A DNA stretch of 63,796 nt, filler included, from Reticulomyxa filosa (lineage: Eukaryota > Protista > Foraminifera), in assembly GCA_000512085.1 (NCBI GenBank). It is 21 parts of 21 records of this genome, joined end to end, with 100 filler letters (N's around TTAATTAATTAA, not from the genome) between each part and the next. Parts side by side here need not be neighbours in the genome. Positions count along the whole stretch, not along the records: positions 17,008 to 19,044 come from ASPP01028157.1; 20 more parts are not named here. The stretch is one strand, 5' to 3'. A program made the position numbers and the translations under genes. Each line of letters begins with the position of its first letter. The first letter of the stretch is position 1. A model generated the notes under the pieces. The model was given only the letters and a program-made list of their open reading frames with translations. It was not told the origin of the DNA and did not search any database. Positions 4,449 through 58,512 of the stretch are shown here, in pieces.

Positions 4449-6211
4449 ATTATTCAAACAAGGATATCCAATATCACTGTCAATATTACTATCATTCCAC
4501 TTTGCTTGATGAGTTGGAAATGTCCATTCAATGGCCTGTTTATCACAATATCTGATTAATTCATTCAAAGCATCGAAATTGATATTATTATCATCATAGC
4601 TCAATTGAATACAAGGATTGAATATCATCAAACCAAATGCCAGTAATTGAATGTCCATATCATTGGCTGTTTTACAAATACGATTATTTGAATTCTGTTT
4701 ATTCATCAATGTATTTTCATTTTTCATTTGGACATTTTCTTTTAATACACAAATTATTACACGTTTCCACATATCTTCGGATATTTTTGATAATGAATCC
4801 CGTGCACAGCTCTTTTTCGCTCTTTCCAACAAATGTATCACCAATAAATACAATTGTTTGTCATTCAATTTCGTTGATATTAATTTAAGTAATTTCACCA
4901 ATCCCATCGACTGTTTGGAAAAAAATATCAAAGCGTTGAAAAACCTCTCCGATTGTGTTTCATTCCATTTCGTTGAAATTTCTTCAAGTGTTTTTTTATA
5001 TGATTTGAAGTAATTCCATATCTGCTTATTTGGCAAAGCATTGAAAACTCCTTCCAGTTGTTTATCAGTCAAATTCGTTGAAATTACTCCAAATAATTCT
5101 GCATATGAATCACAAACATATTCATTTTTATGTTTAAATCTACTTATCAAAGTATTGAAAACTCTTTCCAGTTGTTTCTCATTCGCTTTTGTTGCAGTGA
5201 TACCAAGTGATTTTACAAATGATCCATGATACCAGTTAAATTTATCTTCTAACCCTGAATGAAAGCACTGAAAACTCTATCCAATTGTGTTTCATTCAAT
5301 TTTGTTGAAATTGTTTCAAGTGATTCTGCACATGATACACGATCCCATTCATTGGTATCTTTTAACCCATGAATGAAAGCACTGAAAACTCTATCCAATT
5401 GTTTATCATTCAATTTTGTTGACATTGTTTTCAGTGATTTTTCACATAATGCACGAATACATTTATTTTCATCTTTTAATCCATCCAAACATTCGAAAAC
5501 ATCATCCAATTGCTTTTTGTTTAATTTCATAGAAACATGTCCAATACATTCTGCACACAAGTAATGATTCCATTCATTACCTTTGAGTTTATTGATCAAA
5601 CATGTGAAAAGAGAATCAATTTGTGTTTCATTTAATTTCATTGCAATTCCTTTAAGTAAATTTCTGGATGCATCACAACAATATCCATTTATATTTTGAA
5701 ATCCATCAATTAAACATTGAAAAGTAATATTCAATTGTTTGTCATTCCATTTCTTTGAAAGTGTTACAAGTGATTTTACACATGACTCCTGAACACTCGA
5801 ATCTTTTAATCCATTTGTGAAACATTGAAAAGCATCATCGACATGTTTTCCATTTAGATTCACTGCAATTATCCCAAGTAATTCCGTACATCTCCTACGC
5901 AGCCTGATTATATCCATTGAAGAGTCAAAAGCTTCATTCAATTGTTGTTCATTACATTTATTTGAATTATCAGTGATTATATCCATTGAAGAGTTAAAAA
6001 GCTTCATTCAATTGTTGTTCATTACATTTATTTGAAATTTCTTTAATTTTGATACGAATATTTGGATCTACATTTTTATCCTTTAATGTATCCATAAAAT
6101 AATTCAATGTAATGTTCATTTGTTTTTCATCCAATCTCTGCGCAATTCTTTCAAGTAAATCATCGTATTTATCTATTCTTCATAACCTAATCTACTAATT
6201 AAATAATTAAA
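4449..6211 (-). pseudogene. HEAT/PBS-lyase-like repeat protein of an expanded family, frameshifted
   Basis: About 38-aa repeats (SCAESLETISTKLNETQLDRVFSAFIHGLKD). ORFs 5249-6007 and 4401-5150 are broken by a stop/frameshift near 5249, and there is an imperfect tandem duplication at about 5906-6036. Confidence 0.75.
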
Positions 6212-11541: not shown

Positions 11542-14500
11542 ATGCAATTCGTGTACAATCACCCAGTCTCTACTTCACCTCCTTGGATTCCAGATGAAGA
11601 ATCGAACAAATGTCACAACTGCAATGGCTTGTTCACTTTTTCCCATCGTCGGCACCACTGGTGAGTTTGAATAACGAATGACTGACTCTACCCTCTTACA
11701 AAGAAAAAGTAAAGAAGAAATAAAAAATAACAAAAAAAAGTCGGTCATGTGGAAATATCGTATGTGACGATTGTTCGCGAGGACGTGAATGGATAGGAGA
11801 AGAAAAGAAGCGTATATGTCTAGCGTGTTCAACGTACTTGCAAATCAGAAGAAGCGGCGAAAAGCCAGAACATATAGTGAGTGTGATTAACAAATGTGTA
11901 AAGAAGTACCAAAGCAAATGGAGAAAAATTCGAACGTTGTTGTTTGCACATGAGTGCATTTTATCGAAGATCCAAAAGCAGGACAATAATGAAATGCCAC
12001 AAGGGTACTTGACTATACGTTTGAAGGGGAAAAAACAAAAGGGGAGACCGCGAGCAATAAAACAATGCATAGAGAACTGAAGACGGACGTAACATTTGAA
12101 AATGAAAATACAAAATGGTTGACACAACACGAAATTGAGGAAATGTTAAAAAAGGAGCGCAATGATGAGTTGATATATTTCATAGCCGTTCCTCCAAAGC
12201 ACAATGCGAAGCAGTCGCCATGGACCAAAAGGATTCTGTTGATCCTGAAGGACTCCCGTATCGTGTTGTCGTCGCCCTTGGATCCGAACATTCCTTTCGT
12301 TCGTTTTGTGTCCATTCCAAAAAAGAAACGCAGCATAAAGCCCCCGAGACATTTTAAAGAAGACGACGATGATGAGATCATTATGCTGGAAAAGGAATCG
12401 GAGGATACCGATGACGACGATGACAACAACAACGACGATAGCGAGGATGGCGATAGCAATGAGGACGAGAACGATGAGGATGATGACGAGGACGACGAAG
12501 ATGGGACCAAATCTATCCAAGTGCCTGTCCAAAATATTCATTTTCAATTTTATTCCAAATTGACAAATTTGCAACTCAATCAGATCGAGGATCTGTCCGA
12601 GCAATTCTACTCTGTGATCCCACAATTCCCAAAGGAGTTCAATTTCAATGCTGGTTTCATTTATTTTATTTTTTTATAAAAAAAAAAATTATATATATAT
12701 ACATATATGTACATACATATACGCTACGTGTAAGCTTTGTAATTGTATGCATGTGTGTATGCACTTGTATACGTAGCTGCAAAATGGTTGTTTTGCAATT
12801 CGCGCGTTTGGATAAATTGGAGATGGGTAACCCAAAAACACCGGACTCGGTGCAGAGTCAGTATAGCCATAGTCATAGCCAGTTGCAAAAGCCAGCTCTT
12901 TTGAAGACCAATAGTCAGCCTTTCAAAGCGCCATTTGCTTCGTCCCTCCCTTTGAAAGGTCCGAATGGTGTTGTTGCTGCGTCATCCCAAATGTCAACAA
13001 CTCAAATATCAACAGCTCAAATATCAACAGCTCAAATGCTAACAACGAGACAACAAAGTGACAAAGGCGGCAGCGACAGCCTAGCGATCACAGCGAAAAA
13101 ATTGAAAATGGCAGAAGCGAGTCCATCCCCGCCGAACATAGCATCCAAGTCGCCAACACCTGAAAGCAACACCAGCAAGACAGCACCTATCTCGTCGTCG
13201 TCGCAATTGGCCGCACCGTCCAATATCCACTCCCGCAGCAGTTCCTTGTCCACGTTTTCTTTCTCGGGATTGCATTCGTTTTTCACCACCTTTGGAGCGA
13301 CTTCTGTGTCGGACGTAAACATGGACGACGGCAAAGGCAAGGACAAGACGAGGGGGGACAAAGAAGGAAATGACGAGGACAACGAAGACGAAGACAACGA
13401 AGACGAGGACGACGAAAAGGGCAGCAAAGAGAGAACGGAAAAACAGCGCAGACACAAGACAGTAAGCGTCGCTGGAAAAAGCACAATGACAAAGCCGCCG
13501 ATGATGGTGTCTATGCGTACTCTCAGCGTCCAAGAGAGCGACGCGGCCATGAAATTGGCGATATTGCCATTTGCAGTGCAGTTTTATTATGACAAAGATG
13601 TCGAAAAAAAGAGGAAATTGACCGGCCCTTTGCCCCCTCCCACCATTCCTCGTACGCGACTGTTCAGTAGTGATGATGACGATCTGTCCCAACGAGGAAG
13701 CATCGCGTCTCCTCTCACCACCACTATTCCGCCCACGACGACCACCGCGACAACGATACCGACAATGGCAACGACAACAACAGCCACCACTGTCGGCTCA
13801 GAGTCTTTCTTCGACACTCGAACTCGCTCCAGTAGTGTGTACAAAAGAATGCTAATGGAGAGCGAGACGCGAAAAAGAACAGGCAGTATCGTGAGACCCA
13901 TGGAGCTGCCAAAGCCCTACGCACCTCCGTCCATTAATGCCAGAGGTGACGACGACCTGGGCATTGACAACGACCACCAGCCAATGGGACTGGCCTCGTC
14001 GTCTCGTCGTCTTCAACAACAACAACAACAACAACAACGGCAAAGACAACTATCAACTGAAAAGAGGAACAAAGTGTCATTCGAGGAACATGACAATGAA
14101 ACCATAGGCAAACAGGATGAAGACATGGAATACGGAAGAAAGGCCAGCAATACAGTGTTGACAGTGGTGACTGTGGAGGATGATGACAATGACAATGACA
14201 ATGACAATAACAATTACAGAGATAAACATAAGGATAATGATAAAAACAAGGACAAGAACAGGGACGAAGATGGAAGTCAAGTCGAATACGAAGACGAAGA
14301 TACTATCGAATGGGTTCGACAAAGTATCGACGAAGTAACCACGGATGCTCCAATCGCTCCACTTCGTCCAAAGAAATTTTCTGGACCTGAAGACGAAGAG
14401 TTAACCAATGAGGACGAAATCGAATTCTATTCCTCCGTCTCGCCCGTCGATGAATGTATGCCCAATGGCTTCCACGCTGTCGCTATGACCGCTGCTGCAG

Positions 14501-16189
14501 TCGCTGCTGCACCGCCCATCGTGGAAGATGACGAGAGCAGCACCAGTAGTGCTCGTCCTCATCCGTATCATCCCCCTCTTCCTCCTCCTCGAGACACTGT
14601 CACAGCCAATCCGACCTATGACACGTTTTGGAAACCCACCAATGTCAATCCAGTTCCGCCCAACGATCCAAAGAAATCCAATGCCAATGCCTCCATCGCT
14701 CCAAAGACACGACACTTTCAAAGTCGAACCTGGGCTCTCGGGACCAATGTCAAATTTTACAACGATATGTTCTTGCCTACAAATAAACATACTTTCAAAC
14801 GGTCCTTTGAGAGCGACGAGGACTACAAAAAAACTCGATCAATGCCAAAGGAGGATGAAGATAGAGCCAAACATAAAAAAAAGGAGAAAAGAAAAAGGAA
14901 AAGAAAAAAAAGAAAATGAAAAGGAAAAAGAAAAAGAAAAAGAAAAAACAAAAGAAAAAACAAAAGGACAAGAACAAGGAGAAGAAGAAGGAAGAGGAGG
15001 AGGATATTCAATGGATCGCATTCGAGGATTTTTTGGAAATTGGGCCATTGTGCCTACCAATGGAGCACCGCTCTCATCCTCGACCTCGTCCATGCATAAC
15101 AAGCAGACAACTGTCGATCTAGACAATAATAGTATCAAGCATCCGCAGTTTTCTACATTTGTAAAAGAAGATTGGTTGTCCTTGCAACCACGCACTAAAT
15201 TTGATGTGTGTCAAGATATTCTCGATGTCTTGTCTTGCCATCGCGAAAAGTTTGAATACGCATACTCACAATACGTACTTCAATTTTTCAAATTTACTCA
15301 AGACATGCGAACTGAAGTGTCTTGGAAAAATCACTCTCACCAAATTATGCTTCAGACGTTGTGGAGGTGCTTCATGTTTGACACTCGCTATCGAAATATG
15401 GAGCCACCCTCACAGTCTCATGAAGGATGGAAAGAAATTGGATTCCAAGTTATTTTGCTTGTCTGCTTTCTGATATTTTTTTATATTAATCTTTTTCCTT
15501 TTTTTTTACATTACGGTGGAGGAAATAGGGAAAAGACCCAGTGACTGATTTTCGTGGCATGGGTGCACACGCATTGAATGTAAGTGTTTATGCATTATTT
15601 ACATATGCTAAGTCTTATTTTTTTTTTTTTTTAGGTTTGTATGGGACTTCAGTGTATGGCTTATCTTGCGGAACATTATCCACAACATTGTAATGCCATT
15701 TTTGGAAAAGAAAAAAGTCCAGACAATTATTATCCAATTTGTACATCCTTCATCAATTTAGTCAATCTTATCTGTGAATTAACCAATGCGTCAAAAGGTA
15801 ACTCTTTCCTAAAAAAAAATTGTAAAACATCAATAAAAGGTTTATGTCTACACAAAACACTAGTGAGTGAATTGGAAATGATTGATCAAGCCCCTTTATT
15901 TAAATTGTTTTGCACGGTCCCAATCGAATTAAATCCATTTCAAGAATTGTTTTGTTCATTGGTGAAAACATTTGACAATGTGTGGCGTGAAACAAAATGC
16001 TCTTACATGGAATTTCGATTCTTGTACAACGCTTTCCGAGAAAGAGTCGAATTTCTGTTACAAAAAGAGCCGTGTTCGTTTTCTGTTTTCATACAATGGA
16101 TTGAAACCGATTCATATTTGTATCAATACAAGACTGAAAACATCAACCAAAAAGACACTCTCAATTCCAATATCTCCTTCTTATCTTGA
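11542..16189 (+). CDS. FYVE zinc finger + long low-complexity region + ELMO/CED-12 (ELMOD-type) domain protein, multi-exon
   Basis: Exons 1 and 2 (intron 11661-11740) give WIPDEESNKCHNC..FSHRRHHCRSCGNIVCDDCS...RICLAC (FYVE). C-terminal exons give LQTLWR..WKEIGFQ|GKDPVTDFRGMG|..GLQCMAYLAEHY..YYPICTSFINL (ELMO). There is a frame break in the A-rich run near 14880-14960. Confidence 0.75.
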
Positions 16190-16822: not shown

Positions 16823-17234
16823 TTTGAAAAATCTTAAAAATCTTAAATAAATTACAGGAACTACTTTGTTTTTAATGATTTCTTCAATCATAAATGTAAA
16901 AAAAAAANNNNNNNNNNNNNNNNNNNNNNNNNNNNNNNNNNNNNNNNNNNNTTAATTAATTAANNNNNNNNNNNNNNNNNNNNNNNNNNNNNNNNNNNNN
17001 NNNNNNNTCATAAAATACAATCCAATTCTTTTCGAAACATATTTATTGATTGAATTACTTTCGAACTTTTTCTATATTTGTCATTATATTATTTGAAAAG
17101 ATTCAATGAAAATGGCAATATATCAAAGATTTTAAATAAAAAATTCAAACTGCTATGTAATCGCATAAATTATATGTCTTCATCGATTCATTTGAAACAG
17201 TTTAATAATTAAGTTTTTTGTTATTTTTAAAATA

Positions 17235-17415
17235 TAATAGAATGCAAAGTAAGTTGAAACCTAAAATGGCACCTTATATAGATTATTGATTTTCTACATG
17301 AAAAAACAGCATTCAGACCTAATTTTTTTTATTTAAAAAAATATCTACGAATCGTGTAATTTTTAAATATCATTTTAAAATCTTTTCTAATTGTTTAAAA
17401 AATTTGAAATTTTCA
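17235..17415 (+). mobile_element. Partial copy (TIR and subterminal region) of the Tc1/mariner family found at 19472-20755
   Basis: AATGCAAAGTAAGTTGAAACCTAAAATGGCACCTTATATAGATTATTGATTTTTCTACATGAAAAAACAGCATTCAGACCTAAT..ATCGTGTA closely matches both TIRs of that element. Confidence 0.8.
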
Positions 17416-17483
17416 CTAGTGCAAAAGTAATCAAGTTGACCATTAAAAAAAATATCCAAAAAAAAGACATATTCAGCAGAAAT

Positions 17484-19044
17484 TTACCAATTGTAAGGCA
17501 ACATTGATAAATACTCGATTGTTTTTAATCTTGGCTTTGCACGTCCTATCTTCCATGCAAAGCGGTAAACTTTATTTATCTGATATCTCTCTAAAATACC
17601 TTTTGTGCACATTTGATCAAGCATATGCTCTATGTTACTGATATTTAAAGGCTTGACGTTCAACCTTTCACATATTCTTTTCAATCGCATTTTAATTTGA
17701 GAAGCTGACCAACAGTAATTGCCTTGAGAGAAACAGTGCTCAATCACATACATTGTTGCTGTATCTATATTGTAATATTTTTGTTTGAAATCTTTTTTAT
17801 TAAATCTTTCTTTTTTTTTCATTCTTTCAATTTCTTCTATTTCTTCCTTTTCCATTCTTTCATCCAATGCTGTGTCTATTTATCAAATTCATTTGAATTT
17901 ATTTATTGTGAGACAAAACGAGATAAACATAACATTCATCTTCATTTTCACAATAAACTAAAGAATCAATCCATCTGTTAGGATTATCTGTCATTAAATA
18001 ATCCAAAGCAACTTTGGCTTGCTCGCCTAAATCTTTCCAAACATATTCATATGAATATTTTTCGATATTTTCTGTACATTTTATCAAAATCATTGTTTTT
18101 TAAATATTTTTTGGACAAAGTAAAATGAAGTGAAAGATATCTCTTTGTTTGTTAACAAAACGCAAAACAATATTGTCCATGAGAATAGTGCAGTCTTTTA
18201 AATAATAATCGTTTGTTTTTTGATCCATGCCTCAATATCATTTGGTGTAATTAATGTGTCAATTGGTACTCTCTGATGAGGCCACATTAACATACCAGGA
18301 CTGAACATTGCTACATGTTCGCCAATGTAAACCAACAAAGAAAGGAATTGTTGAATAACATCAAGTAGAGTAATTTCTTGTTCTTCCTTTTTTTGCCCAT
18401 TATCATATTTTTTTTCTTCTTGTTGTTGTCGTTGTTGATCTTTCACAATCAAATCTTTGGCATATACACAAAACATTTCAATACTAACGTCTTCTATAAA
18501 ACTTTTGACCATTTTTCGACGAAGCAAATAGTATTTCCATGCCTTCAATACCAAGATAGCAAGTCGAGTTTCAGTTCCAACACGCTCCTCTCTGATGTGA
18601 TAGGTTCTCAAAATTGTAAATACAGTACTCATGTTTTGATTTAAAAAAGCAATATAATATTTGTGATTTTGTATTTGGGCATCTTGGATTGCATTTTTAT
18701 ATTGATTATAACTTGACATCAAATCATATGCAATCTTTTCAACCTCCTCAGAATTAAATAAACGTAAATATTGTTTATTTCCTTTGAAATTAAATTGATA
18801 ATACTTTTGTCTTTCATAAGTAAATGCAACCAAAATGTTAAATTCACATTTGTCATATTTAATCCACAGACTTCTTTCAGAATACCATTGTTCTTTCTTG
18901 AAATATTTGCATATCCAATCTAATGTCTGTTTTTGCATTTTTTCGGCATAATAAAGGTCATGTTTGTTGTTTTTGTCCAATTGAAATAAAAATATAATGG
19001 TCGAATTATGTTTATGACGGATAGCCAATCTATTTTGTAGACAT
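17484..19044 (-). CDS. OAS-like nucleotidyltransferase-fold protein, apparently catalytically inactive, with a probable C-terminal winged-helix domain (5' partial; spliced or frameshifted)
   Basis: RSLWIKYDKCEFNILVAF ~ OAS VEFDVLPAF. MSTVFTILRTYHIR..TETRLAILVLKAW ~ FSTCFTELQRDFLK..TKLKSLIRLVKHW. SIEMFCVYA ~ ALELLTVYA. WKDLGEQAKVAL ~ WRQLAQEAEAWL. ORF 17484-17867 has a wHTH pattern. Confidence 0.62.
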
Positions 19045-19436: not shown

Positions 19437-19471
19437 TGTAAATATAGTTTTGTGTTTGAAGAAAAGAAATA

Positions 19472-20755
19472 CAGTATAATGCAAAGTAAAGTTGAAACAT
19501 AAAACAGCACATTATAGAGATTATTGATTTTTTTCATGAAAAAATAACATTCAGACATAATTTTTTAAAAATATCTGCAAATCGTGTACTTTTTAAATAT
19601 CATTTTGCTTTTTTAATAAATCTTTACTAATTGTTTAAAAAATTTGAATATTTTATTGATTTTTGAAATTTTTGAGAAAGAGTTGACAATCGTGCCTCGT
19701 CGTAACCATGAAATTTGCCAACTTTTTTTTAAGCATTTTCAGAAAATTCTCAATGCATAGATATTTGTAAAAAAAAAGATTAGTCTTCTAAGTTGCGTAG
19801 TTTTTGAGAAAACTCAATTTTTTGTTAATAAAAAATTTTTTGCAGAATTTAATGTTATTTTGTAAAGTTTATACATTGTGAAGGTATGATGGTTTTTGGC
19901 TACTGTTTGCTTTGTCTTTACTTATTATTGTTTTTTTTGCTTTTTTTTTTGTCTAATGCCAATTAAGTCAAGTTAATTCAAAAGTATTCGAACTGAAATT
20001 TTTTTTTGTGGTAAGATTATTTTTAATGAAAATTACCATTTGTTTACATCACTTTTTGCATTCTATACTGCTTGCATTTTCTTTGGCATTGATTTTGTTA
20101 AGTTTCTTTGTCATATTTTTTCAATTTTAATTTAAATTGTTTCCAGAGTTCTTCTTTTGATCCGAATGTCCATTTTTGAATACTTTCGTTTTCACTATCC
20201 ACCACAGATTTGGTTCAGGTCTGGAGAATTTGGAGTGAAATTCAATACTTTGACAAAATTTTGTTCAAACTATTTTTTTCTGTAATATCTGTGTGGCCGG
20301 TGGCATTATCTTGCTGAAATATCCAATTTTCGTTATCTTCTAAACACCAATTAATGCTTCTTGAGCATTTCATTAACTATAATTTCTTTGTAAATATATG
20401 CATTTGCACATCAATTAATGTCACATGCATAAAAAGGTATTTACACTCCAAAGCAAGACCACAAGATTATGCTTCCACTACCAATTTGATATTTTTATGG
20501 TGAACGTCAGCTTTGATTTACGCACACATTCATGACTTACACAAAATTGTTCTGCAACTTTGCGCAAACTTCAACACTGAGGCAACAGCTACGTCTTTTG
20601 TTAAAATTCTACAAAAAACCAAATAATATTTAAAACTACACGATTTGTAGATATTTTTTTAAAAAATTAGGTCTGAATGTTGTTTTTTCATGTAGAAAAT
20701 CAATCATCTCTATAAGATGCCATTTTAGGTGTCAACTTTACTTTGCATTCTACTG
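19472..20755 (-). mobile_element. Degenerate, internally deleted Tc1/mariner DNA transposon with about 135-bp TIRs and a TA target duplication
   Basis: TA|CAGTATAATGCAAAGTAAAGTTGA.. at 19470 and ..TCAACTTTACTTTGCATTCTACTG|TA ending at 20757. Minus-strand remnants: GSGSIILWSCF (~20450-20485), WIFQQDNATGH (~20290-20330) and FTPNSPDLNQI (~20205-20245). Confidence 0.9.
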
Positions 20756-22979
20756 TATATAGTACATATCATAAAAAATTCTCGACATAATTGTCAAAGC
20801 TTGTACTTTCATTACTTTGTGAAAGAAATCAATGTATGCAACACTTTTTTTAGACAAAGGAAATAAATTGAAGATTATTGCAAAAGTATATTGTAAAACA
20901 GGATTGTTGGTGAAAGATAACAAAAAGTTTAAAGAAAGTCACTTTTCTCTCTTAGTAACAGATAACGCTTTTTCTTCTTCTTTTAGTTTTGTCTATCTCA
21001 ATGTGATTGCTCAAATTTTATTTAATGTTGATATCTATTAAAATATTTTAGATTTGCATGAACATAAATTATTCATAATCTGTTTAAACAAACTTAGAAA
21101 TATTTAAATAAGACAGCAGAATAGGATAGTCTATCTCTTTATCAAATTCATATACTCTAATTGCTAATTGAATAATTGCATTTTCATGATATTCGATTCC
21201 ATAATCTTTTCAATTTGAAATGAAATTATCTTATGTAAAATGATTTATTCTTTTGGAATTAGCATTTTGATTTTTTAAAAAATAATTCGTATTTTTCTAT
21301 TGTTTTAGATTAGATTTGATGGACATTATAACAAGTGAGAATTGTTTGAAAGAATTTTATAATCAAAATAAAAATCTTGTTCAGTTAGAAATTATGAAAA
21401 TTGTTTATATTCTACTAGTTAATTGATAAAACGATATATTTGTAAATTGGACGTTATTTGTCCAATGCAATTTGAAAAAGGTGAAGATGAAAAAAATAAT
21501 GAAAAAATGTTATTTTTAATGAAAAATTAAAGATATCATTTCACATTTGTTTAAAGAATGTAAACTGATATTTCGATTTATTTGGATGTGAACATAAATG
21601 CAAGTAATCAATGATTAATGATCGCTTAATATATAATATAAATTATTGTTATTAAATATGTTACAGTATTGAAAGAAATTATTTTAACATTTAAGGTAAA
21701 TTATTTTTTATTTTTTTTAACACTTTAATAAATAATAATCGAACGATATCGATAAATTGAAAAGTAAGAAATGTAATCAGATTAATAAATATAAATAATT
21801 ATTAAATAGAATATAATTTCATGAAAGATGAAAAAATCTTTTCTTAAATCAAGTTTTTTAGAATTGATAAATAAATCTGTTTTTGCAACAAGTGTTTCAA
21901 TCAATATTCATTTTTGTTTACAAAGTTCATTCAAAAAAAGAATAAACATCAAAATATAACATGTTTTTTTTGTAAAACAGAAAGTATGATCAAACATATA
22001 TATCTTAAACTTTGAATGTGTTTTCATTGTCTTCAATTAGTTGATAATTGCATTTTTATTTTAGATTTATAAAATGAATCTTTTTTCAAAATTTCTATGA
22101 CATAATCAATTTTTCAGTTGTTAATACTTTTCTACATAGTGAAATAAATGGAGTTGTCGTAACAATAAATTATGTTTTTGCTATTCAAAGACTGTCATGA
22201 GTTATTTGTGCAAGTCAGTAAAATTAGGTCCTGATCAAAGAAACAGATAAAAACAATTATGTCAGGCTCAACACAAATTTGAACTGCTAAAAAACACCAG
22301 TCGTTCCGTTTCTTATTTTTTTGTTAGTTTTAAATTATCAAGAAACTACAAAAATTTGTTTTTTTCTACAATGACCATAAGTTAATTTAAAAAATCCCTT
22401 GGGAAACACTATTGAAAAAAAACAACATGAAAAACAGTCAATAAATACAATTTAAAGTAAAATATACTATTTTTACAATTTTTTTGTAATTGAACAAATT
22501 AACGTTTTTTATTTTGTTTGATATAGGGGTAACCCCCTTTATGTAATGGTGGAAATCAAGTGTAGAGGAAATTTTGAGACTCCTTCACAGAAAATAAAGG
22601 AGAAGAATGAATTGGATGTTCGTGAATTTGGATACGAAGGACTCTTTGCAAGTGATTTCTTCGACAAAGAACCAGCTATTAAGAACGTCGGCAAGTGGAA
22701 GATAGCAAGGAAGAAAAGAAACCATTAAATGGGCAATGAAAGAGAAGAAAAGGCAATTGGAGATCAACAATATTGTGGATGGCCGACAGTGTATTACAAG
22801 ACTCGAAAGCACAAGACAATGCCGCAATGCAAGTGGACAAAGAACATCAGCAAAATCTCACCGTCAAAGAAATTCCAGANNNNNNNNNNNNNNNNNNNNN
22901 NNNNNNNNNNNNNNNNNNNNNNNTTAATTAATTAANNNNNNNNNNNNNNNNNNNNNNNNNNNNNNNNNNNNNNNNNNNN

Positions 22980-45868: not shown

Positions 45869-46753
45869 TTATAGGGTGACATTCTTTATAATTACCTCAT
45901 CTTTTAAGGAATGGATAGTATCTTTTTTTATGTTAATTATAATATCGTTGTTATTAGCCTTTCTAATTGTAAATAAAAAATTACCGTTAATATCATAGAT
46001 TTTTTTTATTTTTTCCTTGGGCTTAGTAACTAACTTCTCTTCAACTATTTGAGTTAGTTTCTCATGCCCTATTTTTCCTAACCTTATTCTCTCAGCTAAA
46101 TCAATAATGCAATTTTTATAAGCTTCTCCTTTGTTACATAATTGTTTTATTTTTTCTGCAGTGCCTGATGAGACTTTTCTTAAGTCTCCAATAGCACTAG
46201 AAATTTCAGTAGGGATTTGGCTATATGATAATAATCTAGACAATTTTTGTTTACTAATACCTAATTTTTCTATAAGATCTACTTGTTGAATTACTCCATC
46301 CCTTATTTGGTTAGCGTAACTTATGCCTTGCGCATATTCAGATAAAGGATTATAAAAATTTTCTTCTTCCTGTACTATAGAAGCTTCATTATCATTAAGA
46401 TTTTGTATTATTACCTTTAGCCCAATATTTGCTTTTATAGCTGCACGCCATCTCCTTTCTCCTGCTATTAATTCATAGTGATCTTTCTGATTAATGCTAG
46501 GTCTTGCTATGCAAGGTTGTTGTTGCCCTATTTCTAGCATCCTCTTAGCTAGTAAATCTATATCTCCTAATTCATTTTGCGGTCTATCTTTATATTTCCA
46601 TAAAGTGATTTTTTTAGGATCTATAGAAACAATCTCAGACTCAATTCTTTTTACTTTGTATGTATCGCTGCTGTCTATATAATCACTAAAATTTCTTGCT
46701 TTATGATCTGCATCTAAAAGTTTGTCTATTGGATCATTCCATTTTTTACTCAT
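45869..46753 (-). CDS. parB: ParB/RepB/Spo0J-family partition protein (bacterial)
   Basis: GQQQPCIARP..YELIAGERRWRA (ParB box II), EEN..PLSEY and an HTH (QVDLIEKLGISKQKLSRLL). It overlaps the parA stop by 8 bp, as in an operon. Confidence 0.95.
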   Translation of the reverse strand: MSKKWNDPIDKLLDADHKARNFSDYIDSSDTYKVKRIESEIVSIDPKKITLWKYKDRPQNELGDIDLLAKRMLEIGQQQPCIARPSINQKDHYELIAGERRWRAAIKANIGLKVIIQNLNDNEASIVQEEENFYNPLSEYAQGISYANQIRDGVIQQVDLIEKLGISKQKLSRLLSYSQIPTEISSAIGDLRKVSSGTAEKIKQLCNKGEAYKNCIIDLAERIRLGKIGHEKLTQIVEEKLVTKPKEKIKKIYDINGNFLFTIRKANNNDIIINIKKDTIHSLKDEVIIKNVTL

Positions 46754-47862
46754 GGTTGTTTACCGTTGATTTTATTCCCCAAATTTCTTTAAAAGCTTCA
46801 AAAATTTCTAAATTTACTTTATTGCAAGCCTCAATAGCTCTCCTATAAGTCGTGCTATTTGTTGCATATTGTTTTTCATAAAGAGATAATAAAGCGTTTG
46901 AAGTATTGTCTATTTCTGCGGAATCAATCATGTGATTTACAAGAATAAATTCTCCATATAATTTTCTCATTAATTGATCTAACTTATTTGCTGCATTATT
47001 GCCTTTGTGTTTAGTTAAAAGTATACGGAAAAAATCTAATTCATGAGGATTTGCTACACTAAATACTTTTTTCAGAGTTTTGGTTAATCTTACAAACGAG
47101 GCAAAATCTGGCATAGAGGGTGGTAAAGTTATCAGTACAGAATTAGCAGCAGATACTGCATTCATTGTTAAAGCACCTGTATTAGGTGGGCAATCAATAA
47201 TTATTACGTCATAGTTTGATTTTACCTCATCTAAAGCTGACTTTAAACGTTTTAGAGGACTTCCTATCTCGATAATTTTTTCATCTGATAGAAAAGGTAA
47301 GTTAAGCTCAACATTCTGTAATTCCAAATTTGCCGGAATTATATCTATACCTGCAAAGTATGTCTTTTTAATTACTCTATTTATATCTTTTTCATTTTCT
47401 AATAATGTAGTAGCTAGAGTATCATCTTCTAATAAGTCTATGTCCGGGATAAATCCAAACCAAGTAGTTAGAGTTGCCTGTGGGTCAAGGTCTATTCCTA
47501 GGATTCTAAGGCCTTCTATGGCTAAATATTGCATAAGTAATAAAGAGGTCATTGATTTTCCGACCCCACCTTTAAAATTTAAGATGCACAGAATTATAGG
47601 TTCTTTATCTATAGGTTTTGTAAATTTTACGTTAAGAGCATCCCTGATTTTGTTGATTAAGTCTAAGGAATATTGCTTTCTACCATTTATATCTCTGGTT
47701 GGTTCTGGGATAATTTCTTTTTGTTCTAAGGAGCGTATTGTATTAGGGGATTTACCCAGCATATTAGCTACAGCATTTATTCCCCAAGTTCTCAGTTGTT
47801 TCCTTTCTTGAGGTGCAGAAGAAGTCTTTACTATACTCAGTATAGCTTCTTGTCCTATATTA
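46746..47862 (-). CDS. parA: Type Ia ParA/RepA plasmid partition ATPase with N-terminal HTH; native 5' end interrupted by an IS
   Basis: Deviant Walker A NFKGGVGKS, GIDLDPQATLT, DIIPAN and YDVIIIDCPP. The frame stays open upstream of ATG 47762 (SAPQERKQLRTWGINAVANMLGKS..., HTH) up to the IS end near 47861. Confidence 0.93.
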
Positions 47863-47995
47863 GACTTCTTTCGAAACTCATAACTTCAGCTCCCAATTAT
47901 AAAAAGCAGTAATAAGATTAAAACGTAGGCCAAACCTCTTTCTTCTATTGCGATACCGATCAGCAATAATCTTAAAACGCTTTAACATACCGATA
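47861..47995 (-). mobile_element. IS5-family (ISL2-like, DDE_Tnp_4) transposase 3' end with terminal inverted repeat
   Basis: The minus strand reads IGMLKRFKIIADRYRNRRKRFGLRFNLITAFYNWELKL*, followed by GTTTCGAAAGAAGTCTA (putative IR), which abuts parA coding sequence. Confidence 0.8.
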
Positions 47996-53860: not shown

Positions 53861-54430
53861 ATACAAATTTAGATTAACTTTTATGCTTTTTCTTGCACAT
53901 TCGAATCCATTCTAACACCAATCCCCTCTTCCATCAAAAAAATTGTTGTGAGGTTAAATGTTTTCTTATTAAAGACAAGCGAATGGACTATTTTGTGGAA
54001 ACTTATTTTTTTGTTTCTATTTATTATATTAAAATGGTATAATACTTTCTGTATATTTCAGTTTTTTTTGTGGTGAGTTCTTCACAAGAAAAGTCGCAGC
54101 TGCAAAAAACGATAAATTGAACGGTAACAACACAAAGCTTCAGCAAGTAAACAGAATTGTTGAAGGGCGTATTGTTTTTAATTTCGCACTTGTTAATGAC
54201 AACGGCATTGAAAAATAAAAGCGCGTTCAAAAAAAAAGGTAGCAAATATGCACTATTTTGGGTGAAATTTCTCTCATGTCAAGTATTGTTTTGCATTGGG
54301 AAAAGAAAAAAAAGAATTGAGAAGATTGAACAACGTTTACATCTGCCTTTGTAGTCAACGTTTCTAATTTAATCGTTCTAATACAGTATCCATAAAGCCG
54401 AGAAGCGGTAAAAAAAATCGAAACAAAACA

Positions 54431-56851
54431 ATGGCCAATGGTTTTGCGAAGCTGAAATTGAAAATAGCACTGCCAGGAGAGGTGGCAAGTATCGAAAGCC
54501 CATGGATTCAAAAACTGCGTCAATATGACTTGCAGCATGATCCAAAGATCTATGCGTTTGCGGAGTCATTATATTCGAAGCTGCTGCATTTCCCACGTTC
54601 TCACTCGCACATGCGACGTCATTGTCGACGATGCATCAGTACGTCTTTATCATCGACAGGAGCAACCACAGCCATGGGAGTGGGAGTAACAGTGACGACC
54701 GAGTCGCAATGGTCGGGGACATCGACAAAGACGATAGGACCAAGTTATCATAACAGTAGTGGCAATAGCAGTCCTACCAAGTCTATTCATTATCATCAAA
54801 AGTGTATTCCAATGACACCAACAAATGAAAAGGAAAAAGAAAAAGAAGATTCGATAAGACATAGCACTCAATTGACTAGTCATGAAATGACCACTCCAAT
54901 ACCGATGACCCCATCAATGGAGGGAGGAGAAGACTTTGATGCGGCCTGTGGCCATCTCAGCAATGGCAATGGCAATGGAAAACATGGAATGGAGACACTG
55001 ACCCCCGTGGCACATATATGCTGTTATTACAATCTATTGTTTTTGGATGCGGATGGTGTGATCGTGCCGACCAAATCATTGAAAGAGTTTCCAAGTGAGG
55101 AGCATATGGCCCGACTGAAAAGCATTTTGGATCAAAACTCGCCCGAGTTGAGTGTGATTATCAGCAGTTCGTGGAGAAGCTCGCCCGATCATTTGTACTC
55201 GCTGTGCGCGGCTTTCAAAGAGATCGGCATTGATTATCAACACGTGATCATTGGATGCATTCCCAGCTGCAAAGACGAAAGCTTTTACAAAACACACGTC
55301 GAAGAGCGCAATGCCTGCATTCAGGCGTGGTTCTCGCAAATGCACATGGACTACGTTGACGTGTACTTCGATCCCAATCACACGTGTTACGCCAATCAAC
55401 ATCTGTGCAAAGGACATCCCACACACGTCCTGCCCTCGTCCGCCGACGACGACGACGACGACGACGACGACATCTTCGTCCTCGGCCACACCGTTGCCAA
55501 GGATTCTATACACTCACCGCACGAGGCACTCCTCCCTCTTCGCGATAAAACTCTCAAAAAAATCAGTTTTGAGTTTGAGTCGGGGTTCCTTTTTTTTTAA
55601 AAAAAAAAAAAAAAAAGAGGGGAGGGGGGGGAAGAAAAAAAAAAAAAAAAAAAAAGGGGGCTTCATTATTTCTTTCTCTGTTTATTAAATATATGTACAT
55701 ACATATACGAACAAAAAGAAAACGAGAGCGAGAACGCGAATAAGAATGGCGGAAAAGCTCATGAATCGACAACGACTCACTCACAACATAAACGCTCGCT
55801 TTCCCCACTATCCCCAGTGGAAAGCAAAACAGTACTGTCGACAACGAATGGTCGCGCACATGTGTCTCGCGGCGATGTGACGACCTCCACCCATCCCAAA
55901 GTATCCATTAAGCTACCCACGCCGACAATAACAATCAGCAATATATCCACGTCCACTGCAAAGGCGGCAAAGCCTGCGCGCGGCAAGCCGCGTGTGCTCG
56001 AGGACAGCGATAACAATGACAACAGCACTGCGAATGAGCCTGCGACTTCCAACACACATAACAATAACAGTGATGGTATTATTCACAACGACAGCAATGA
56101 CAATGACAACCACGATGATGACGAAAAACACGTAACAAATGGAGGACCCGTCAGCAATGTCTGCACATTAGTTCCGACGTCGACATCAACGCTTTCGCCA
56201 GCGCCTTGTTCATCGACTAAACGAATTATGAAAGTGTGGCGGTCGAAAGCGCAAAATTTCAATGTTTACAATTACTTAATTGTGGACGACTTTGGATTGA
56301 GCGGACCTATGATCGATGGACACTTTTTACGAACGCAACCGAGCGTTGGAATGACGGAATATGATAAACAAACCATTCTGACGTTCTTCAAAAATCCACC
56401 CCCTTCTGCACGTTCAAGTCGACGTAAAAAAAGCCATTCTCTCAAATCCAAACATACAGTTTCACCGATAAAATCCGCTCAATCACATGACCACAATCTC
56501 CATCTCAATCATGATCATGATCATGAGCATGATCATAATCATAATCATAATCATAATCATGGCCGTAAGCACACTCACTCTAAACTTTCGACTTCCACTA
56601 TCACTCCACATCCTGTTGACGACTCTCTCAATCCTGCTGTTGTCTTACAACACCAAAACAGCGATGTGGATAGAAGAGCAGAAGAAGGAGGGGAAGAAGA
56701 AAAAAATGGACCAGTAGATAGTCATGACGACGACGATGAAGAAGAACAAGAATGGGAAGATGAATCATCTGAAGGAACTCGGGAACGAAATGCTTTGTTA
56801 GCTAATATCGACCCAGACATTTTAATGATGATACCTTCTGCACAGGATTAA
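54431..56851 (+). CDS. HAD-superfamily protein of the Swiss-Army-Knife RNA-repair type (HAD_SAK_2-like) with long low-complexity inserts, 2 or more exons
   Basis: LLFLDADGVI (motif I), VIISSSWR, IIGCIP and RNACIQAWF; after the insert, NYLIVDD and HFLRTQPSVGMTEYD. Likely intron at about 55566-55817. Confidence 0.72.
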
Positions 56852-58192: not shown

Positions 58193-58330
58193 CAGTATGT
58201 TGCAAAGAAAACTGAACGCCTAAAACGATATATTATGATGATAATTGATTTTCTCCATGAAAAATCAACATTTAGACCTAATTTTTTTTTTATTTTAAAA
58301 AATATCTACAAATCTTGTAGTTTTCATATT
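58193..58330 (+). mobile_element. Diverged solo TIR copy of the Tc1/mariner family
   Basis: CAGTATGTTGCAAAG..CCTAAAA..ATTGATTTTCTCCATGAAAAATCAACATTTAGACCTAATTTTTT..AATATCTACAAATCTTGTAG aligns by eye with the TIR at 19472. Confidence 0.72.
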
Positions 58331-58512
58331 TTAATTTTATTTTTATTTTTTTATTTTTTTTTATTTGAGTCCTTTTTTTTGTTGTAATATCTTCAATATT
58401 AAAATTTTAATCNNNNNNNNNNNNNNNNNNNNNNNNNNNNNNNNNNNNNNNNNNNNTTAATTAATTAANNNNNNNNNNNNNNNNNNNNNNNNNNNNNNNN
58501 NNNNNNNNNNNN

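What the first reader, a model, noticed from the sequence alone, without database searches (positions are those of the whole stretch)
17899..19044. OAS-like nucleotidyltransferase-fold protein in a protist that appears to have lost all three catalytic aspartates
Seen: five ordered motifs align by eye with animal OAS1. CLQNRLAIRHKHNSTIIFLF aligns to GSxGKGTxLRGRSDADLVVFL, EFNILVAF to EFDVLPAF, STVFTILR..RLAILVLKAW to STCFTELQ..KSLIRLVKHW, IEMFCVYA to LELLTVYA, and WKDLGEQA to WRQLAQEA. Established: OAS/cGAS/CD-NTase enzymes need the DxD...D metal triad. Here those positions read N-S-T and N. Inference: this is a pseudo-enzyme, comparable to catalytically dead OASL or DZF proteins, that may act as a nucleic-acid sensor, decoy or regulator in an uncharacterised protist innate-immune pathway.
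Basis: partly seen in the sequence, partly recalled or inferred. Interest (0 to 1): 0.78.

Follow-up and report, generated by a model that had tools for sequence, protein, structure and literature searches.

The report
Dead OAS-like enzyme family in foraminiferan
This incomplete protist gene encodes a protein predicted to have the shape of the animal antiviral enzyme OAS but lacking its three catalytic acids; it is one of many such copies that likely act as non-enzymatic RNA binders, although this copy carries a frameshift and may itself be dead.

Summary
The fold is OAS-type: the model's best match is porcine OAS1 (Z 10.8; Z 21.7 for a fuller paralog), and the family profile's best PDB hit is human OAS2 (E 2e-7). 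The register is fixed by two paralogs that keep D-G-D...D, so N-S-T...N is a true loss of the triad; the Ser and Lys of the GS loop are gone too. The gene belongs to an expanded family (23 aligned; 21 named Reticulomyxa filosa): of 22 members covering the triad, 2 keep all three aspartates and 16 have no acid, in two strongly supported clades (N-x-N, 5; C-Y-H, 11). The N-x-N clade shows purifying selection on the scaffold (p about 0.006). Five paralogs are frameshifted too, so assembly error and recent gene death cannot be told apart. One intact member is already in a published CD-NTase table; I found no report of the dead clades. Expression, RNA binding and any immune role are untested.

The parts
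18214..19044 (-). Coding exon, part before the frameshift: OAS-type nucleotidyltransferase lobe (from the GS loop on) and most of the helical C-lobe; 5' end cut by the contig edge
   Evidence: Open frame 19043-18201, 281 aa; model pLDDT 79, pTM 0.74; best structural match porcine OAS1, Z 10.8, rmsd 3.6, 209 aligned
19032..19043 (-). GS-loop positions: Cys in place of the Ser, Asn in place of the Lys (OAS1 K66) that the two intact paralogs keep
   Evidence: Residue table; codons; alignment to OAS2 domain II
18999..19007 (-). First two triad positions, N-S-T in place of D-x-D
   Evidence: Aligned to D-G-D of P0005 and P0009 and to OAS2 D408/D410
18837..18839 (-). Third triad position, Asn in place of Asp
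   Evidence: Aligned to Asp in P0005, P0007, P0009 and to OAS2 D481
18477..18593 (-). Kept OAS residues: Arg151 (OAS2 R533 / porcine OAS1 R198, RNA contact), Lys167, Glu189 (OAS1 E233)
   Evidence: roles of R533/R198 and E233 from PMC13372824 passages; role of the Lys recalled
18212..18221 (-). One-base frameshift in two adjacent A-runs (6 and 3 bases); leads to a stop at 18200-18198
   Evidence: Paralogs P0007, P0009, P0010 continue without a gap in the next frame
18162..18213 (-). Coding exon, part after the frameshift (ILMDNIVL strand, equal to the VILDP strand of OAS)
18072..18161 (-). Intron 1, 90 nt, GT..AG (inferred)
   Evidence: Removal gives gap-free alignment to P0010; P0007's annotation retains an insert at the same place with the same flanking residues
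17934..18071 (-). Exon with the last OAS helix (WKDLGEQA)
17876..17933 (-). Intron 2, 58 nt, GT..AG (inferred)
   Evidence: Removal gives gap-free alignment to P0007
17484..17875 (-). Last exon: charged linker, then a basic, probably winged-helix domain (about 17711-17541); stop TAA at 17486-17484
   Evidence: Pfam Cdc6_C E 0.002 and Penicillinase_R E 0.02, both under cut-off; Atlas leads BlaI and DsrD at 0.86, lead level only; pI 9.7 for the last 91 residues; homologous tails in P0007, P0008, P0010
19045..19144 (.). Artificial N spacer between contigs; neighbouring pieces are not genomic context

Best explanation
This is one copy of an expanded family of proteins predicted to have the OAS fold, in a five-copy branch that lacks the three metal-binding aspartates and so likely cannot make oligonucleotide signals, and that was likely kept for a time as a non-enzymatic RNA-binding scaffold or decoy beside a few catalytically intact paralogs. 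Shown: triad, GS-loop Ser and Lys replaced; intact paralogs exist; the replacement N-S-x...N is shared by all five copies; changes among them avoid conserved columns. Inferred: without the acids no two-metal catalysis is possible; the kept helical lobe, Arg151 and the basic winged-helix-like tail would bind double-stranded nucleic acid, so the protein would compete with or tune the intact paralogs, or act on RNA directly, as dead OAS domains do in animals. Open: this copy has a one-base frameshift, about even odds an assembly error or a recent inactivation.
For: Fold; paralog P0009 model to OAS1 Z 21.7, rmsd 3.8, 290 aligned, ahead of OAS2 18.2, poly(A) polymerase 17.2, CdnC 17.1, NF90/NF45 15.1. 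Profile to OAS2 E 2.4e-7, register on OAS2 domain II. Triad table: 2 of 22 D-D-D, 16 of 22 no acid. Clade support 100/100. Variable columns within the clade 18 of 91 conserved against 36 of 92 variable, Fisher p 0.006; neutral simulation gives so low a share in under 1 of 100 runs. No stop in 469 codons and both introns keep GT..AG. A second triad-less clade holds C (10 of 11), G (11), Y (10), H (11) at the site at a median 61% identity. Precedent: inactive OAS2 domain I, OASL, and OAS2 D481A still antiviral (PMC13372824 passages).
Against: The frame is broken at 18212-18221. The 9 changes private to this copy fall 5 in the conserved half and 4 in the variable half, no sign of selection on its own branch, and include a Tyr for a conserved Cys; absence of stops is not significant at that branch length (P about 0.07). 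Only one of two tested RNA-binding arginines is kept, and the other is absent from the intact paralogs too. No member reaches the Pfam OAS1_C cut-off (0 of 23; best E 0.044). Foldseek's best E for the window's model is 1.4e-3 with TM 0.38. Nothing here ties the family to immunity.
Confidence: 0.55

Rival explanations
1. Birth-and-death debris: the N-x-N branch is a set of pseudogenes of an OAS-like enzyme; the aspartates were lost as function lapsed and the copies spread with other repeats.
For: Frameshift here and shifted tails in P0003 and P0004 of the same clade; the other two copies are fragments on contigs of 538 and 707 nt, so 0 of 5 is seen as a whole intact gene. Private changes not skewed. 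R. filosa has very many duplications (PMC11069148 passage).
Against: Within-clade changes avoid conserved columns. The long stem of the clade (0.48 changes per column) left lobes, introns and tail intact. Frameshifts also hit an intact-triad paralog (P0005) and leave shifted tails 21 of 21 and 10 of 10 compatible with close paralogs, which points to very recent breaks or errors; an unrelated ELMO gene in the window changes frame in an A-rich run without a usable intron.
Confidence: 0.27
2. Repurposed site: the triad-less proteins still bind a nucleotide or oligoadenylate (receptor or sink for the signal of the intact paralogs) or have new chemistry, rather than binding RNA.
For: Lys167 and Glu189 kept; Arg146 replaces a small residue in 4 of 4 N-x-N and 8 of 10 C-Y-H rows with a letter there. 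The C-Y-H clade holds a fixed Cys/Cys/Tyr/His set and keeps the loop Lys in 11 of 11.
Against: In the window's clade the middle position varies (T 2, I 2, A 1) and the loop Lys is lost; 56 of 142 columns in the C-Y-H clade are as constant, so constancy alone does not mark a new active site.
Confidence: 0.12
3. A DZF-like (NF45/NF90) housekeeping RNA-binding pseudo-nucleotidyltransferase unrelated to defence.
For: Atlas feature search ranks a DZF_C cluster first (0.92) and an OAS1_C cluster second (0.90); NF90/NF45 appears at Z 8.6.
Against: OAS1 outranks DZF by 2.2 and 6.6 Z units; the profile finds OAS2/OAS1 and no DZF chain at E up to 10; paralogs keep the triad and P0009 hits the CBASS cyclase model NF041116 at E 7e-6.
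Confidence: 0.06

Closest known systems
Non-metazoan OAS-superfamily CD-NTases (Culbertson & Levin 2023, PMC10732462); its table lists EP00480_P025644, which is P0009 (RFI_14454) of this family
   Same: Same family as P0009 (36% identity over the aligned part); same fold; R. filosa is scored OAS-positive there
   Different: P0009 keeps D-G-D...D; the window's protein has N-S-T...N. The table has 4 R. filosa entries; of the 17 EukProt ids shown for this family only P0009's is among them. The passages read do not discuss dead members.
Porcine/human OAS1 (PDB 4rwn, 1px5, 4ig8)
   Same: Best structural match; motif order; E233, porcine R198 and the C-lobe Lys equivalents kept
   Different: About 15% identity; triad, loop Ser, K66 and R195 equivalents missing; extra C-terminal winged-helix-like tail; RNase L pathway is placed at jawed vertebrates (PMC10400998, abstract start in listing)
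Catalytically inactive OAS domains: human OAS2 domain I (9h1z), OAS3 domain I (4s3n), OASL (4xq7)
   Same: OAS fold without a full triad; all three appear in the structure lists; a model for how it may work
   Different: Those are partnered in one chain with an active domain or with ubiquitin-like domains; here the dead domain is a separate gene, in many copies, with a different tail. Analogy, probably independent origin (not tested by a tree).
DZF proteins NF45/NF90 (4at7)
   Same: Pseudo-nucleotidyltransferase of the same fold class
   Different: Lower structural rank, no profile hit, and this family has intact-triad members

Membership tests
OAS superfamily (fold and descent) | Pol-beta nucleotidyltransferase lobe plus OAS-type helical lobe, nearest to OAS1 | tested here: met
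   OAS1 ranks first for both models; margin 1.0 Z for the truncated window model, 3.5 Z for P0009
OAS superfamily (fold and descent) | Sequence profile matches OAS before other nucleotidyltransferases | tested here: met
   OAS2 E 2.4e-7, 3.5e-4, 2.1e-6 with three profiles
OAS superfamily (fold and descent) | Nests in the OAS clade of a CD-NTase tree | not tested
   No outgroup sequences were fetched; trees hold family members only. P0009 is in a published CD-NTase table; its place in that tree was not seen
Pfam OAS1_C (PF10421) | Score above the gathering cut-off | tested here: not met
   0 of 23; best 13.8 bits against 19.9
Active OAS / CD-NTase enzyme | D-x-D...D metal triad | tested here: not met
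   N, T, N
Active OAS / CD-NTase enzyme | GS loop Ser and K66-equivalent Lys | tested here: not met
   Cys and Asn; P0005 and P0009 have Ser and Lys
Active OAS / CD-NTase enzyme | Makes 2-5A or a cyclic oligonucleotide | not testable with these tools
   Needs an assay
dsRNA-binding OAS domain | RNA-contact arginines (OAS2 R529/R533, porcine OAS1 R194/R198) | tested here: inconclusive
   Second kept (Arg in 16 of 20 rows with a letter), first is Thr
OASL | C-terminal ubiquitin-like domains | tested here: not met
   The last exon gives weak winged-helix leads and no ubiquitin family at E up to 10
DZF (NF45/NF90/ZFR) | DZF_N/DZF_C match and closest fold | tested here: inconclusive
   Atlas 0.92 for a DZF_C cluster but no Pfam DZF hit and lower structural rank
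Intact protein-coding gene | Unbroken reading frame after splicing | tested here: not met
   One-base frameshift as assembled
Intact protein-coding gene | Transcribed and spliced | not testable with these tools
   No run could be listed

The most novel reading that the evidence does not exclude
A foraminiferan has built an OAS system in which a few active synthases are outnumbered about eight to one by dead paralogs under selection, in two clades with different fixed replacements of the active site (N-x-N and Cys/Cys/Tyr/His), some carrying a winged-helix tail: a decoy or receptor layer of nucleotide-signal immunity outside animals, with the Cys/His clade possibly a repurposed site.
Probability: 0.22. 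Interest if true: 0.75.

Novelty: new variant of a known kind. Interest (0 to 1): 0.47.

Why it matters
OAS-like enzymes are the commonest CD-NTases in non-animal eukaryotes, yet their products and effectors there are unknown. A lineage where 16 of 22 scored paralogs lack every triad acid, with signs of selection, suggests that non-enzymatic OAS functions known from mammals arose again in a protist, and gives matched active and dead paralogs for direct biochemical comparison. It also shows that HMM surveys seeded on active enzymes undercount the family. The window's own copy is a weak representative: truncated and frameshifted.

Tried and rejected
Single-sequence Pfam and PDB searches gave nothing useful. 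No whole genome is held, so no paralog DNA, no dN/dS and no search for effectors. Sequencing runs: none was listed. Related loci: none confirmed in viral contigs (12 pattern matches), metagenome contigs (138 and 282) or prokaryote genomes (32). P0010 found only itself. The profile search scored only the top 7996 candidates and found 9 proteins, all R. filosa; longer or shorter forms were not searched. Complex prediction of P0009 with the window's protein: no answer, score 0.00, alignments not used, partner fold uncertain. Foldseek of the P0009 model against PDB and viral structures was never run. The winged-helix-like tail was not folded; Pfam listed no Z-alpha family for it, which does not exclude one. 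A single origin of both triad-less clades is not rejected (p-AU 0.33), so independent losses are not claimed. One of two negative controls of the shifted-frame test beat all 60 shuffles by one point; the test was repeated with 300 natural stretches per case (0, 0, 0, 1 and 0 reached the observed scores). The 'no stops in five sequences' figure was dropped as biased, since the paralogs are annotated open frames. Rows left out: P0002 (same locus), P0016 (130-aa fragment); P0010 from both trees; P0011 and P0017 (long branches). P0008's first triad column is unsure because of a 10-residue insert. Pure-splice rescue via donor 18295 judged unlikely. Neighbouring genes were rejected as context. Literature: 7 searches listed no paper on dead OAS-like proteins in foraminifera; the R. 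filosa genome paper is not held; the supplement of PMC10400998 could not be read and may bear on prior listing; only 5 supplementary files of PMC10732462 were searchable.

Full report
Setting. The window is a chain of 21 contig pieces joined by N spacers; the finding lies on a 2037-nt piece, 17008-19044. Neighbouring pieces are not context. An open frame of 281 residues runs on the minus strand from the piece edge to 18201 (P0001). Close paralogs show that the first base of the piece ends the Gly codon before the first motif and that about 100-120 residues lie upstream.

Family. Sequence searches gave 4 proteins, 17 and 9, overlapping; cluster look-ups added two. I aligned 23: the window's protein, 21 named Reticulomyxa filosa hypothetical proteins and one unnamed JGI/IMG protein, P0010. 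The nearest are 82-85% identical, so the window is very probably R. filosa or a close relative (inference). That assembly is fragmented (50,809 scaffolds, N50 3609, mean intron 87 nt; PMC13746701, passages) and rich in duplications (PMC11069148, passage).

Fold. P0001 alone has no Pfam or PDB hit. A family profile hits human OAS2 at E 2.4e-7, then four OAS1 sequences at 0.1. The AlphaFold2 model of P0001 (pLDDT 79, pTM 0.74) ranks OAS1 first by Foldseek, weakly (E 1.4e-3, TM 0.38), and by VIA-align (Z 10.8, rmsd 3.6, 209 aligned; poly(A) polymerase 9.8, OAS2 9.6, NF90/NF45 8.6). The fuller paralog P0009 (pTM 0.81) gives OAS1 Z 21.7, rmsd 3.8, 290 aligned, against OAS2 18.2, CdnC 17.1 and NF90/NF45 15.1, and hits the CBASS cyclase model NF041116 at E 7e-6, far below its cut-off. 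The Atlas ranks a DZF cluster (0.92) just above an OAS cluster (0.90). On balance the family is OAS-derived; nesting in a rooted tree was not tested.

Register. Two paralogs, P0005 and P0009, keep GGS...D-G-D...D without gaps against the window's C...N-S-T...N. The profile lays these columns on OAS2 chain positions 428, 430 and 501, which with the chain's 20-residue offset are D408, D410 and D481, the catalytic triad named in PMC13372824 (passages). The loop Ser and the K66-equivalent Lys are also replaced (Cys, Asn); the E233 equivalent, the C-lobe Lys and the R533/R198 RNA-contact Arg are kept; the R529/R195 Arg is Thr, as in the intact paralogs (roles; the OAS1 numbers S63, D75, D77, Q194 and K213 are recalled).

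Spread of the loss. Of 22 members covering all three columns, 2 have three aspartates, 4 have one or two acids and 16 have none. The 16 form two clades, each 100/100: five N-x-N copies including the window's, and eleven C-Y-H copies. One shared origin of the two is not rejected (p-AU 0.33). The C-Y-H clade (pairwise identity 46-88%, median 61) holds Cys, Gly, Tyr and His at the site in 10, 11, 10 and 11 of 11 members and keeps the loop Lys in all; 56 of its 142 columns are equally constant.

Gene model. Paralogs continue past 18225 in another frame. One missing base in the A-runs at 18221-18212, a 90-nt intron (18161-18072) and a 58-nt intron (17933-17876), both GT..AG, give a 470-residue read-through that aligns without gaps at these joints to P0010 (intron 1) and P0007 (frameshift, intron 2). 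It ends at 17484 after a basic tail with weak winged-helix leads, present also in P0007, P0008 and P0010. There is no stop in 469 codons. As assembled, translation would stop at 18198 and lose the last strand and helix of the OAS lobe.

Error or dead copy. Five other members that I picked by eye (P0003, P0004, P0005, P0018, P0019) have annotated tails that match the family in a shifted frame, 26 of 30, 9 of 10, 15 of 22, 10 of 10 and 21 of 21 residues under the best codon choice, with 0, 0, 0, 1 and 0 of 300 control stretches scoring as high; P0004's case may be an annotation artefact. One of them has the intact triad. An ELMO gene in the window also changes frame in an A-rich run with no fitting intron. 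Breaks in A-runs are thus common in this assembly, which fits sequencing error but also real slippage; I recall, unverified, that the genome paper reports many pseudogenes (not held). I put the odds near even.

Selection. Among the five N-x-N copies, 18 of 91 columns conserved in distant members vary, against 36 of 92 variable ones (Fisher p 0.006); a neutral codon simulation reaches so low a share in 0.5-0.8% of matched runs. So the scaffold was under selection after the triad was lost, if the five copies inherited the loss, as their shared N-S-x...N implies. On the window's own branch the signal is absent (5 of 9 private changes in the conserved half), and the lack of stops has P about 0.07. 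The test is at protein level on annotated frames, not dN/dS.

Mechanism. Shown: loss of the metal ligands in a fold-intact, selected clade beside intact paralogs. From established knowledge: the triad is needed for 2-5A synthesis, and dead OAS domains can still act (inactive OAS2 domain I, OASL, antiviral OAS2 D481A). Inferred: the protein binds double-stranded nucleic acid through the helical lobe and basic tail and acts as decoy, tuner or direct binder. An immune role is by analogy only.

Prior knowledge. Culbertson & Levin (PMC10732462; passages, section 7 part 2, rows of two supplements) report OAS-like proteins in 8 of 12 supergroups and list four R. filosa CD-NTases, one being P0009. So the family is touched in print through its intact member. 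Seven literature searches listed nothing on the triad-less clades. PMC10400998 was seen as listing and four passages. Earlier scan notes show other protist OAS-like genes in other genomes and none at this locus.

Verdict. Real OAS-fold pseudo-enzyme lineage; a new variant of a known kind; this copy is truncated by the assembly and frameshifted. Interest 0.47.

Noticed in passing
P0012-P0015, P0018, P0019, P0021-P0025 (related proteins): An 11-member OAS-like clade with a fixed Cys/Cys/Tyr/His set in place of Ser/Asp/Asp/Asp and the loop Lys kept; three members share a contig of 9663 nt by the listed length and near accession numbers. A better target than the window's copy.
   Followed up: partly
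window 45872-47885 (-): Adjacent intron-free frames for a MerR-HTH/ParA ATPase and ParB, a bacterial plasmid-type partition pair, on one 2511-nt piece; likely a contaminant or symbiont contig.
   Followed up: no
window 12487-16189 (+), break near 14875-14920: Long ELMO-domain gene whose frame changes in an A-rich run with no fitting GT..AG.
   Followed up: partly
window 4449-6007 (-), break near 5255: HEAT-like repeat gene with a one-base loss against its own neighbouring repeat unit.
   Followed up: partly
window 17214-17413, 19467-19654, 20621-20778, 58201-58337: A dispersed AT-rich repeat of about 140-200 nt, 79-85% alike, one copy 70 nt behind the gene's stop.
   Followed up: no
window 54368-55597 (+): HAD_SAK_2 domain (Swiss Army Knife RNA repair type), E 1.7e-11.
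   Followed up: no
P0010 (unnamed JGI/IMG protein): The only member not named R. filosa (44-46% to the window's protein), lacking the intron-1 insert, so perhaps a transcript of another foraminiferan; it starts behind the triad, whose state is unknown.
   Followed up: partly
P0006 and P0020: Both begin with the same seven residues unrelated to the family, just before the first motif, suggesting a shared indel or insertion there.
   Followed up: no
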